Shown here: positions 21,001 through 24,000 of the stretch, piece by piece
How the letters are laid out: every line of letters starts with the position of its first letter
How positions within the stretch are numbered: the first letter of the stretch is position 1
Assembly: GCA_049976845.1 (NCBI GenBank)
Contig: JBMFHL010000008.1
Span: 1 to 29,429, forward strand
Reading direction: 5' to 3'
DNA: 29,429 bases
Origin: Candidatus Micrarchaeia archaeon
GTDB taxonomy: Archaea; Micrarchaeota; Micrarchaeia; Micrarchaeales; CABMGC01
Program-made: the position numbers

Positions 21001-24000
21001 ATACTATACATTATATAAATTTGATCTCTGAAACGGTGCTCTTAAAACTCTGTAACGCCTGGCTGTTTATAAGCTCTCCAGGCTTATAAATCCTATTGTC
21101 AAGTAGTAAATTATATGAGTGCCCAGTCTCAAGATCTATTGCGATATGCCTTATCTCATTGCCAAACAAATCCAACTCAACAAGTGAACCCTTTACTAAC
21201 TTTTTAAGTCCACTTATAACATCAATCAATTCGTTGTAACCATTTTGCATCCCAATAATTCTAAATTCAAGGTTCTGGTTCCTAAATTTGTCTAAATACT
21301 TTCTAATATTAGCCTTAGTAGCATTGCTAAGCAGCATAGAACTTCTTATAAAAAATCCAGAGTTCGAGTTTACATCAAAAATAGATACAAACAAGTCATA
21401 AGTTATATTTGTAGAGACAATATACCTAATATCTGCGGTTTCCTTCTGAAAAAATGCAGTATTTGGCTTTAGCTCTCTATGCAATCCATATACCGAATCT
21501 ATCGAGGCATGTGCCCTTTCCATTGGTATATAAGTAGACTTTCTGCTTCCTATAAAAATCCTTTCAGTTGAGAAATCCTTAAGGTAAACTGCTTTCTTAA
21601 ATGCATCCCAAGCGTCCATCCTATCGCAATCTTTATTATATCTTCTATTTATATAAACTTATTTTGAATAATCTTTCAATGCTCTGTGCCAATGCGGCAA
21701 TCACATCAAGGGCCCGTAACTCAGTTTGGCCAGAGTGGGAGGCTTTTAACCTCTAAGTCAGGGGTTCAAATCCCCTCGGGCCCGAATAATAAAAATGAAT
21801 GGTGTTGCGATATGGTTGATGAATTCAGGCTGGCAAAGCTAAAATCCCTTAGAGAAATAGGCATTAATCCTTATCCTTACAATTATGTCCAGACTGCACA
21901 TGCAACCGAGATAAAGCAGGACTTCGAAGGCTTCAATAACAAACAGGTAAGCATTGCTGGCAGGGCAATAAGCATGCGTGAAATGGGCAAGCTATACTTT
22001 ATAGACATTTTAGATGGCACTGGCAAGATACAAGTGTTAGTCAGGAGTGACAAAGCCAGTGCAGAAGCAATGAAAATACTTAAGCTGGCAGATGTAGGGG
22101 ACATACTAGGCGTGGGCGGAACCGTAATAAAGACTAAAAGAGGCGAGATAACAGTAGAAGCTACAAATATAGTAATGCTTGCAAAATCTTTACGCGTCCT
22201 CCCAGAAAAATTTCACGGACTTACAGATACAGAGCTAAGATACAGGAAGCGCTACCTTGACTTTATAGCAAATCCAGAAGTAAAAAATTTTTTCATCACG
22301 AGAGCAAAAATACTAAAGTATGTGAGAGACTTCCTAGATTACCACGGGTACATTGAATTTGAAACACCTGTATTGCAGCCCACATATGGTGGTGCGAATG
22401 CAAAACCTTTCATAACATACTACAATGCATTGGATTCAAAAGTGTATCTTAGAGTCGCAGACGAGCTATATCTCAAAAGGCTTATAATAGGCGGATTTGA
22501 AAAGGTATATGAAGTTTCAAAAGACTTCAGAAATGAAGATATAGATTCTACCCATAACCCTGAGTTCACGCAAGTAGAGTTCTACGAGGCATACAAAGAT
22601 TACAACTATCTCATGGAGTTTACCGAGGAAATGCTTAATGGCATGGTGAAAAGTCTCTTCAATTCGGAGAAGGTAGTGTATAAAGGTGCAGAACTAGATT
22701 TCAAAAGACCTTTCGAAAGACTATACTGGGTAGATGAGCTGCGCAAAAAAAGTGGCATAGACGTTTCAAAGCTCACTGACGAGGAAGCCGAAAAGATCGC
22801 AGAAAAAGAGAACCTCCCTGTTCCAATAAAGAACGCTTACCATGTTGCAGATGCACTTTTTGACAAATATATACAGCCGAACCTATTCAATCCAACGTTT
22901 GTGACCGATTTTCCCTCTTATATGTGCCCTCTTACAAAGGATAAAAGAGGCAACAGCATGCTGAGCGAGCGCTTTGAATTATACTTAGCCGGCAAAGAGG
23001 TTGCAAACTGCTATTCAGAGCTTACAGATCCAATAGAGCAGAGCAAGAAGTTTAGTGAACAGGAAGAAGAGCGCAAGCATGGCGACGAAGAAGCGCCACC
23101 GCCAGATTCGGATTTCATAGAAGCGATAGAGTATGGAATGCCCCCTACGGCTGGCATAGGTGTGAGCATAGATAGGATAGCAATGCTGCTTACAGGTAAC
23201 GATTCTATCAAAGAGGTTATAGCATTCCCTGCAGTCAAACCAATCCCAAAGAATTTGCAAAAGCCCAAAGAGGCAAAAGGAAAAGAAGATAAAAAGTAGC
23301 TTCCAAATATATTACAGCAATTTAAGCATCTGGAAAGTAAGAAAGCGTAAAAAGGCTTATTAGAGGCAGTTCCCTAAAGATACATATTATTTTAAATATC
23401 TTTACCGATATTATCTAAGCTGAAACCTCTTTATAAAGGTTTTCAATTAATATATTTAGCAAGCCAGGGTGGCGGAATCCGGTAACGCGTACGCCTGGAG
23501 AAAGATCCTGCAAGCGTATGGCTCTCTGAGCCTTCTGGGTTCAAAAGACTTTCTGAAAATCCCAGCCCTGGCGTTTGGTGTTATAATGAGTGAAGAAACA
23601 AGTGCAGAACAGAAAGGCAAACAGCCTCAAGCCCAGCCTCAGCCACAGCAGCAGGCAAAGGCAAAGAAAGATGAAACAAGCATAGTAAGAATTGCAGGCA
23701 GAGACATAAATGGCAATTATAAAATATCAAAAGCGCTTGACCAGGTAAAAGGCATTGGCAATAACATGGCAAACGCTATAATGCTTGTAGCCCAGAGAAA
23801 GTTTAACATAAATCCAGAGTCAAAGATTGGTTCGCTTGGGGACAAAGAGATATCTGAAATAGAATCTATAATGAAGGATCCAATAAAATTCGGCATACCT
23901 TCATATTTTGTGAATAGGAATAAGGACAGGGAAACTGGTAGCAGCATGCATATTATAGGAAGCGACCTCACAGTAAGAGTAAAACAAGATGTAGACAACG

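What a model noticed while it worked through the whole genome (the two positions that open the first line are those of the whole stretch)
21710..21784. No wobble-uridine modifying enzymes (Elp3, NcsA/TtuA) and no archaeosine TGT
The genome encodes U34 tRNAs (for example tRNA-Lys UUU here) but neither Elp3 (C5 side chain) nor NcsA/TtuA (2-thiolation) nor MnmA/MnmG. Both archaeal enzymes were lost at the base of Micrarchaeales; the archaeosine TGT is missing from nearly the whole phylum.
Evidence so far: Call 137 (TIGR01211): 0 of 24 Micrarchaeales vs 17 of 17 others. Call 141 (TIGR00269): 0 of 24 vs 12 of 17. Call 125 (PF01702): 0 of 24 and 2 of 17. All ring in the 4 archaeal controls. Call 147: no tRNA_Me_trans, GIDA or MnmE row in pfam.tsv. 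C34 partner tRNAs for split boxes (Lys CUU, Gln CUG, Glu CUC, Leu CAA, Arg CCU) are kept (rna.tsv, call 58).
(Added by a program. Inside this text positions count along the whole contig: contig position 1 is position 1 of the stretch shown here. "Call 12" and the like, gene names such as g00115 and contig names such as C1 are that model's own, and its searches are not shown. The text may have been shortened before it was handed on; [...] marks where a part breaks off. The agent that wrote the report below was given it as the finding of a first reader that could run no searches.)

Follow-up and report, generated by a model that had tools for sequence, protein, structure and literature searches.

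The report
Archaea lacking wobble-uridine base modification
A whole order of tiny symbiotic archaea has lost both enzyme systems that nearly all cells use to chemically mark the first anticodon base (U34) of their tRNAs, and their codon use looks shifted accordingly, so they probably translate with bare wobble uridines, apart from a likely RNA-guided sugar methylation on one serine tRNA.

Summary
Confirmed and extended. tRNA-Lys(UUU) is at 21710-21784. Elp3 passes its cut-off in 0 of 71 genomes of the order, 78 of 80 other phylum members and 142 of 151 genomes of another small-genome DPANN phylum. NcsA/TtuA-type hits: 0 of 71 versus 61 of 80. TGT: 4 of 151. Elp3's usual upstream neighbour lies in this window, followed by an unrelated orphan. 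Fe-S and sulfur supply are kept.

New here: TiaS is missing in 151 of 151 and AUA is read by tRNA-Ile(UAU) (known for ARMAN). The order under-uses AAA/GAA/CAA and over-uses AUA (one clade, overlapping ranges). The tRNA-Ser(UGA) intron carries a one-armed box C/D guide aimed at U34 in 72 of 72 order genes versus 0 of 53 outside.

Best reading (0.62): U34 bases of Lys/Glu/Gln/Ile tRNAs are unmodified, tolerated because C34 partners read G-ending codons. No nucleoside data. The scan had noted such intron guides on other genomes, but not the enzyme loss. Closest precedent: one deep-sea Spiroplasma.

The parts
21710..21784 (+). tRNA-Lys(UUU), intron-less; a U34 tRNA whose usual C5 and 2-thio enzymes are missing
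21812..23299 (+). class II (bacterial-type) lysyl-tRNA synthetase, 27 nt behind tRNA-Lys(UUU); the class swap is not order-wide
   Evidence: TIGR00499, 569 bits; class I kept in G038
17303..18142 (-). about 270-aa protein that sits directly upstream of Elp3 in seven Elp3-bearing genomes read; marks the empty Elp3 site
   Evidence: (E 7.6e-62)
16596..17291 (-). 231-aa orphan in the slot where other orders have Elp3; same slot in G038 and G016; no Elp3 remnant, no invariant residues, no clear fold match; not considered a replacement enzyme
13194..13291 (-). tRNA-Pro(AGG) with A34 and extra inserts, missed by ARAGORN; part of the altered decoding set
   Evidence: earlier finding e1-7950251
23463..23573 (+). 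tRNA-Ser(GGA) with inserts, missed by ARAGORN; completes the Ser UCN box
2372..2471 (+). tRNA-Ala(GGC) with T-loop intron, missed by ARAGORN

Best explanation
The ancestor of this order lost Elp3 (C5 side chain) and NcsA (2-thio), on top of older phylum-wide losses of TiaS and, nearly, the archaeosine TGT (shown as gene absence). The U34 bases of tRNA-Lys, -Glu, -Gln, -Ile and the other U34 tRNAs are therefore most likely unmodified (inferred). This is tolerated because the ancestral archaeal set has a C34 tRNA for the G-ending codons (shown), so U34 tRNAs need to read only A-ending codons. The cost falls on AAA, GAA and CAA, which the order under-uses for its base composition (shown as a correlation). 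Unmodified UAU is the form known to read AUA without AUG on a suitable ribosome, whereas a C5-modified UAU also reads AUG, so losing Elp3 may be neutral or helpful where AUA is read by tRNA-Ile(UAU); AUA is 0.64-0.67 of Ile codons in Elp3-less lineages against 0.43 in Elp3-bearing ones (correlation; cause inferred). The one wobble mark with a sequence signature is ribose methylation: the tRNA-Ser(UGA) intron folds back on nt 31-36/37 and places U34 five bases from a CUGA box in a D'/C' kink-loop, for fibrillarin-Nop5-L7Ae to make Um34 before splicing (layout shown, methylation inferred).
For: Absence; empty syntenic site. Not generic shrinkage: Elp3 in 142 of 151 genomes of the phylum of G171; SufBDC, SufS, SufU, ThiI, Taw1 and an MtaB-type enzyme kept. 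TiaS 0 of 151, 4 archaeal controls pass; tRNA-Ile 5' half found with UAU in 119 of 151 genomes and never with CAU. Codons, G000 whole plus 20 kb from each of 20 order and 20 outside genomes: order effect on logit(A/G-ending) at given GC3 is -0.52+-0.15 for Lys+Glu+Gln, -0.05 for AGR, +0.30 for UUR, +0.28+-0.07 for family boxes; G033 at GC3 0.28 has AAA:AAG 550:804, GAA:GAG 430:658, CAA:CAG 125:201 but AGA:AGG 638:137. Within family f12 AUA/Ile is 0.51, 0.52, 0.54 with Elp3 and 0.66, 0.64 without. No recurrent trans guide for U34 of Lys/Glu/Gln/Ile in 81 order genomes. Ser intron guide. Papers: PMC4352028 (abstract), PMC3575796 (abstract), PMC3895270 (abstract), PMC5861454 (abstract, passages).
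Against: No nucleoside data. An unknown enzyme cannot be excluded: 160 of 721 proteins were not scanned, many scanned ones have no family, and the AmmeMemoRadiSam triad of unknown function is kept in 5 of 5 single-contig genomes. The codon shift is one clade, hence one event; ranges overlap (Lys/Glu/Gln minus family-box index: order mean -0.77, outside +0.02, but G093 -0.89, G103 -0.81, and order members G003 -0.02, G019 -0.01). The AUA rise is partly a general rise of A-ending codons (Val +0.68, Thr +0.46 against Ile +1.07). Ribosomal-protein genes of G000 barely avoid these codons more than other genes (AAA 0.42 vs 0.47, p 0.017, one of 12 tests; GAA and CAA no difference). tRNA-Ile(UAU) coexists with Elp3 in most other orders (54 of 80 outside genomes carry it), so the two are compatible. 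Lys codons AAA and AAG are still nearly equal in G000. The guide duplex is only 5-7 bp with one kink-loop.
Confidence: 0.62

Rival explanations
1. A non-homologous enzyme has replaced Elp3 or NcsA and U34 still carries a base modification. Candidates are the AmmeMemoRadiSam triad, ThiI with a widened target, the 562-aa radical SAM protein, an unassigned methyltransferase or GNAT, or the orphan in Elp3's slot.
For: Fe-S and sulfur systems are intact. AmmeMemo radical SAM in G000 and 5 of 5 single-contig order genomes; AMMECR1 has been linked to an uncharacterised RNA base modification (PMC4075521, passages). A conserved orphan occupies Elp3's slot in 3 of 3 order genomes read.
Against: AmmeMemo also occurs in control archaea that have Elp3 and NcsA. 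The 562-aa protein is a strong match in only 3 of 5 order genomes. The orphan has no invariant column in 124 sequences and no fold match above Z 4.5, and a 3-sequence model missed it in order genome G033. The AAA/GAA/CAA deficit fits an unrepaired loss.
Confidence: 0.2
2. RNA-guided 2'-O-methylation has broadly replaced base modification: most U34 tRNAs become Um34 through guides I could not detect.
For: Fibrillarin, Nop5 and L7Ae present. Ser(UGA) intron guide in 72 of 72 order genes. The Leu guide pairs 11 bp with both Leu(CAA) and Leu(UAA). Um34 is known in Sulfolobus tRNA-Gln(UUG) (PMC7668247, passages).
Against: A general position-34 guide pattern found only the Leu guide recurring (52 of 81 order genomes); it has G at +5 (fits C34) and also occurs outside the order. 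tRNA-Lys(UUU), -Glu(UUC) and -Gln(UUG) of G000 have no intron. Earlier scan notes report such cis guides in other small archaea, so they need not be replacements.
Confidence: 0.09
3. The host supplies modified tRNAs or the enzymes through cell contact.
For: Micrarchaeota physically interact with Thermoplasmatales (PMC5864196, search listing and start of abstract); the same caveat is raised for the Spiroplasma case (PMC5861454, passages).
Against: The genome keeps 44 of 46 tRNA types and its own t6A, m1G, wyosine and s4U enzymes; other host-dependent DPANN keep Elp3; the codon deficit argues against full rescue.
Confidence: 0.07
4. Artefact: the genes are present but unassembled or too divergent to detect.
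For: G000 is 90% complete in 52 contigs.
Against: 0 of 71 genomes, five of them single-contig, and the named complete genome at L219; Elp3 scores E<1e-149 wherever present in the phylum; the neighbour gene is there and the slot is filled by something else.
Confidence: 0.02

Closest known systems
'Candidatus Spiroplasma holothuricola' (PMC5861454; abstract and passages read)
   Same: No recognisable U34 modification genes; both U34 and C34 tRNAs for NNR split boxes; inferred from the genome.
   Different: One bacterial genome, called an evolutionary dead end, with C34 tRNAs read as a countermeasure and no fundamental change in codon use. Here a whole archaeal order (36 genera in the sample), the C34 set is ancestral, AAA/GAA/CAA are depleted and AUA is read by UAU.
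Mycoplasma mobile tRNA-Ile(UAU) with unmodified U34 (PMC3575796, abstract); ARMAN tRNA-Ile(UAU) without TiaS (PMC3239211, passages and section 13)
   Same: AUA read by a UAU anticodon after loss of the C34-modifying enzyme; the ARMAN case is already in print.
   Different: Mollicutes keep MnmA and, but for M. suis, MnmE/MnmG (PMC4014445, passages). Here all known U34 base enzymes are gone and AUA is the commonest codon of G000 (62 per 1000). The phylum-wide extent (TiaS 0 of 151) and the link to Elp3 loss were not in the passages read.
Yeast elp3 uba4/urm1 double mutants (PMC4352028, abstract); Haloferax ncsA deletion (PMC4048286, abstract)
   Same: Loss of both marks can be survived; the defect centres on tRNA-Lys(UUU).
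   Different: Sick laboratory mutants against a natural, diversified lineage.
Box C/D guides for position 34: pre-tRNA-Trp intron (Pyrococcus sR50, Haloferax), N. equitans tRNA-Met intron, Pyrobaculum sR27/sR46 (PMC7994747, PMC3491384, PMC6009581; passages)
   Same: Antisense guide, CUGA box, target at +5, wobble position.
   Different: Host is tRNA-Ser(UGA), target is U34, one guide of 5-7 bp with a single D'/C' kink-loop; no Rfam family. Same layout as the phylum's elongator tRNA-Met intron.

Membership tests
Elp3 (archaeal cm5U34 pathway) in this genome/order | radical SAM plus KAT protein over the TIGR01211 cut-off | tested here: not met
   0 of 71 order genomes, 78 of 80 outside; local profile best E 0.19; empty syntenic slot
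NcsA/TtuA (s2U34) | PP-loop protein with CxxC fingers, PF01171/TIGR00269 | tested here: not met
   best order hit E 1.9e-7 is GMP synthase; only Dph6 and ThiI carry SGGxDS in G000; TIGR00269 0 of 3 named Micrarchaeota records
MnmA / MnmE / MnmG | tRNA_Me_trans, MnmE or GIDA domain | tested here: inconclusive
   no such row in 561 of 721 proteins scanned; MnmA also unlikely by the motif scan; not searched as families across genomes
Archaeosine TGT | PF01702 | tested here: not met
   0 of 71 order, 4 of 151 phylum, 14 of 14 controls
TiaS / agmatidine AUA decoding | PF08489 and a tRNA-Ile with CAU | tested here: not met
   0 of 151; UAU in 119 of 151, CAU in none
Organism without U34 base modification (S. 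holothuricola type) | known U34 base enzymes absent | tested here: met
Organism without U34 base modification (S. holothuricola type) | C34 tRNA for every split NNR box | tested here: met
   Lys CUU, Gln CUG, Glu CUC, Leu CAA, Arg CCU; ancestral in archaea, not newly gained
Organism without U34 base modification (S. holothuricola type) | unmodified U34 shown chemically | not testable with these tools
   needs mass spectrometry
Archaeal box C/D guide RNA (tRNA-Ser(UGA) intron) | box D' (CUGA) and box C' (UGAUG) in kink-loop spacing | tested here: met
   invariant in 21 of 21 aligned genes; motif in 72 of 72 order genes
Archaeal box C/D guide RNA (tRNA-Ser(UGA) intron) | Watson-Crick pair to the target at the fifth base before the box | tested here: met
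   U34-A in 21 of 21; nt 31-35 paired 21 of 21; nt 37 changes on both sides in 3
Archaeal box C/D guide RNA (tRNA-Ser(UGA) intron) | two C/D modules and a duplex of about 9-12 bp (canonical layout, recalled) | tested here: not met
   one module, 5-7 bp; it works like, but is not, a canonical sRNA
Archaeal box C/D guide RNA (tRNA-Ser(UGA) intron) | fibrillarin, Nop5 and L7Ae encoded | tested here: met
Archaeal box C/D guide RNA (tRNA-Ser(UGA) intron) | 2'-O-methylation of the target | not testable with these tools
   needs RiboMethSeq or reconstitution

The most novel reading that the evidence does not exclude
This order is a long-lived, diversified lineage of cells that decodes with no base modification at U34 at all. 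Having already swapped agmatidine for a UAU anticodon, it gained from losing Elp3 (a C5-modified UAU misreads AUG), made AUA its commonest codon, moved away from AAA/GAA/CAA, and keeps RNA-guided ribose methylation as its only wobble mark. Its ribosome or tRNA bodies must then enforce AUA/AUG and NNR/NNY discrimination themselves.
Probability: 0.3. Interest if true: 0.85.

Novelty: new variant of a known kind. Interest (0 to 1): 0.68.

Why it matters
xm5 and s2 marks at U34 are counted among the last tRNA modifications that shrinking genomes give up (PMC4014445, passages), and Elp3 survives in DPANN genomes as small as 0.5 Mb. A whole order without either would show that they can be lost for good when C34 isoacceptors are kept, and gives a natural test of what they are for: decoding efficiency at AAA/GAA/CAA, or fidelity. 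It also makes an open question testable: how an archaeal ribosome tells AUA from AUG with a UAU anticodon, in cells where AUA is the commonest codon. The named complete genome ARM-1 (L219; a cultured strain, as I recall) lacks both genes and carries the Ser intron guide.

Tried and rejected
Loose tRNA-Ile pattern: mostly chance hits; replaced. First idea that tRNA-Ile(UAU) marks only Elp3-less genomes: rejected, it is phylum-wide. Weak 320-aa PF01171 class as a TilS-like enzyme: it is GMP synthase subunit B. Intron-dependent pseudouridine at 34/36 of tRNA-Ile(UAU), as in eukaryotes: no TruA row among the proteins scanned, and the gene is intron-less in G038 and 75 nt long in G033, G042 and G100. 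LysRS class swap as compensation: class I is kept in order genome G038. Loss of Fe-S or sulfur supply as cause: SUF operon intact. Leu and Trp C/D guides as replacements: also outside the order. Strict 9-bp guide scan in G000: nothing convincing. First Ser pattern was too strict and missed the order. Leader-borne Ser guide outside the order: 0 of 20 loci; G084 (with Elp3) has a downstream sRNA that could pair Ser(UGA) or Leu(UAA) U34. Orphan in Elp3's slot: no PDB sequence hit, no Foldseek hit at E<=0.001, best Z 4.5 over about 64 residues; a weak match shows neither a new fold nor absence of kin. RNA runs: no RNA holder listed. The kink-loop U-U column counts as unpaired by design.

Full report
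OBSERVATION. The window is contig C8 of G000 (731 kb, 52 contigs, 90% complete). The anchor tRNA-Lys(UUU) is real and lies 27 nt before a class II lysS.

ENZYME ABSENCE. Elp3 (TIGR01211) passes its cut-off in 0 of 71 genomes of the order and 78 of 80 other genomes of the phylum. Three of the five weak order hits were read and are unrelated radical SAM proteins. With the broad PP-loop model PF01171, 11 of 71 order genomes have weak hits; the three read are GMP synthase, a QueC-like protein and ThiI, and the other eight match these by length; 61 of 80 outside genomes have hits at E<1e-9. Profiles from the phylum's own Elp3 and NcsA find no orthologue in G000's six frames (the best NcsA hit is CysD). 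TGT is found in 4 of 151 genomes, none in the order. Of 721 called proteins I scanned 561 against Pfam, leaving out strongly hydrophobic and very short ones: no MnmA, MnmE, MnmG, TiaS, TGT or TruA row appeared. The six radical SAM proteins are Taw1, an MtaB-type methylthiotransferase, Tes, the AmmeMemo enzyme, a SPASM-like protein beside a carbamoyltransferase, and a 562-aa protein of an archaeal family. Synteny agrees: a 270-aa gene stands directly before Elp3 in seven genomes read; it lies in this window (17303-18142), and in G000, G038 and G016 it is followed by a 225-234-aa orphan with no trace of Elp3. In G080 and G083, two genomes of another order without Elp3, the neighbour is present and Elp3 does not follow.

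NOT GENERIC SHRINKAGE. In the phylum of a Woesearchaeota-titled record (G171), 144 of 151 genomes have Elp3 at E<=1e-20 and 142 pass the cut-off. G000 keeps SufBDC, SufS, SufU, ThiI, Kae1/Bud32, Trm5, Taw1, Trm1, TruD and a TrmJ-like enzyme. Mollicutes keep MnmA, and MnmE/MnmG in all but M. suis (PMC4014445, passages).

THE tRNA SET. G000 has 44 of the 46 usual archaeal types, counting Pro(AGG) for Pro(GGG) and Ile(UAU) for Ile(CAU). Pro(UGG) and Arg(CCG) were not found; single-contig G038 has Pro(UGG). All five split-box C34 partners are present, but that is the normal set in Pyrococcus and Sulfolobus too (PMC7668247, passages). TiaS is found in 0 of 151 phylum genomes, and the tRNA-Ile 5' half carries UAU in 119 of 151 (65 of 71 in the order, 54 of 80 outside) and CAU in none; two genomes gave false rows, dropped. 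This was reported for three ARMAN genomes (PMC3239211, passages and section 13). In Haloferax a U34 mutant of tRNA-Ile gains 5-cyanomethyl-U and binds AUA, AUU and AUG (PMC3895270, abstract); in Mycoplasma mobile unmodified UAU reads AUA and not AUG on its own ribosome (PMC3575796, abstract). That cnm5U comes from Elp3's product is recalled, not read.

CODON FOOTPRINT. I compared G000 (whole) and 20 kb each from 20 order and 20 outside genomes with a simple gene caller. At given GC3 the order has fewer A-ending codons for Lys, Glu and Gln (-0.52+-0.15 logit), no deficit for AGR or UUR, and more in family boxes (+0.28+-0.07). These are the three tRNAs that carry the double mark in yeast, where losing both is survivable but costly, chiefly through tRNA-Lys(UUU) (PMC4352028, abstract). 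G033 is extreme. AUA is 0.54-0.81 of Ile codons in the order (mean 0.67, n 21), 0.09-0.61 in Elp3-bearing outsiders (mean 0.43, n 18), and within family f12 0.51-0.54 with Elp3 against 0.64-0.66 without. Against: the order is one event and the errors assume independence; ranges overlap; Val and Thr also shift to A-endings; ribosomal-protein genes show at most a weak extra avoidance.

AN RNA-GUIDED MARK. The tRNA-Ser(UGA) gene (C29, outside the window) has a 37/38 intron with CAAGA-G-CUGA, a short loop and UGAUG. Of 81 order genomes, 73 matched the tRNA pattern; seven chance rows were dropped, one of them a genome's only row, leaving 72 genes, all with the motif. It was seen in 0 of 53 outside genes within the 44-52 nt shown, nor in the leaders of 20 of them. 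In 21 aligned genes nt 31-35 pair in all, nt 36 in 19, nt 37 in 14 with three double changes, U34 is always fifth from the box, and the splicing helix uses a separate strand. Both sides are mostly invariant, so covariation is thin. The elongator tRNA-Met intron has the same one-armed layout aimed at C34 in 5 of 5 order and 4 of 5 outside genomes, a likely template. A scan of GTDB listed 80 of at least 119 hits; 31 are in tRNA-Ser, 30 titled Micrarchaeota or a sub-rank and one 'archaeon'. No recurrent trans guide for U34 of Lys, Glu, Gln or Ile was found; the recurring Leu guide (52 of 81) fits C34 and is ancestral. I reached this before seeing that the scan had noted such guides on other genomes, one of them a Ser(UGA) intron and some across other small archaea; so the guide is order-specific within this phylum, but need not be a response to the enzyme loss. 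Ser(UGA) is in a family box, and why it alone is marked is unexplained.

MECHANISM AND ODDS. Shown: the absences, the tRNA set, the codon correlations, the guide layout. Inferred: bare U34 bases (0.62), against an unknown enzyme (0.2), broad Um34 (0.09), host supply (0.07) and artefact (0.02). The causal link between Elp3 loss and AUA use is the weakest step.

WHAT IS KNOWN. The nearest case is 'Ca. Spiroplasma holothuricola', one genome without U34 genes (PMC5861454, abstract and passages). Searches listed no paper on Elp3 or NcsA loss in Micrarchaeota or on a tRNA-Ser intron guide; the library lacks most subscription papers, I read only listings for most hits, and I opened no supplements, where genome papers may tabulate these absences. 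The scan's notes held nothing on the enzyme loss.

VERDICT. Interest 0.68.

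Noticed in passing
window 2372-2471, 13194-13291, 23463-23573, 14883-14982: Three tRNAs that ARAGORN misses (Ala GGC, Pro AGG, Ser GGA, all with unusual inserts); the gene at 14883-14982 is Leu(GAG) with an intron, not Glu. The rps13 start is then near 23587, not 23469.
   Followed up: yes
window 16596-17291: Orphan family (169 representatives at 50% identity) with a confident model (pLDDT 94.6) of two similar alpha/beta halves; weak likeness to small ribosomal chains and glyoxalase halves (Z 4.5 or less). Function open.
   Followed up: partly
G033 (L084, L161, L162): Extreme avoidance of AAA, GAA and CAA in an AT-rich genome (GC3 0.28) while AGA and UUA are strongly preferred.
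   Followed up: partly
L108:3340-3391 (G000 C1, minus strand): Full C/D sRNA whose D guide pairs 11 bp with tRNA-Leu(CAA) and (UAA) at position 34; its short D' guide has no assigned target.
   Followed up: partly
L462 (G084 C22): C/D sRNA right behind tRNA-Ser(UGA) in an Elp3-bearing genome; its guide could pair U34 of Ser(UGA) or Leu(UAA).
   Followed up: no
G000 proteome: No row for TruA, Pus10, Cbf5, Sua5, Trm10/11/14/56, TrmY, TmcA or ThiF among 561 proteins scanned; Kae1 without Sua5 is odd and may reflect the missing 10% or the score limits.
   Followed up: no
L194 (G169), L255 (G170): Two 1.8-Mb euryarchaeote genomes with NcsA but no Elp3 over cut-off: another single loss, useful as a codon control.
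   Followed up: no
G000 C47 (887 bp): tRNA-Asn and tRNA-Ala that look foreign (AT-rich, duplicate types); possible contamination.
   Followed up: no
window 20105-21031: Stand-alone tRNA-binding (PF01588) protein and a 2'-5' RNA ligase-like protein near tRNA-Lys and lysS.
   Followed up: no
L007 (G018 C6): A bacterial-looking TilS-like gene (494 aa) in one outside genome; transfer or contamination.
   Followed up: no
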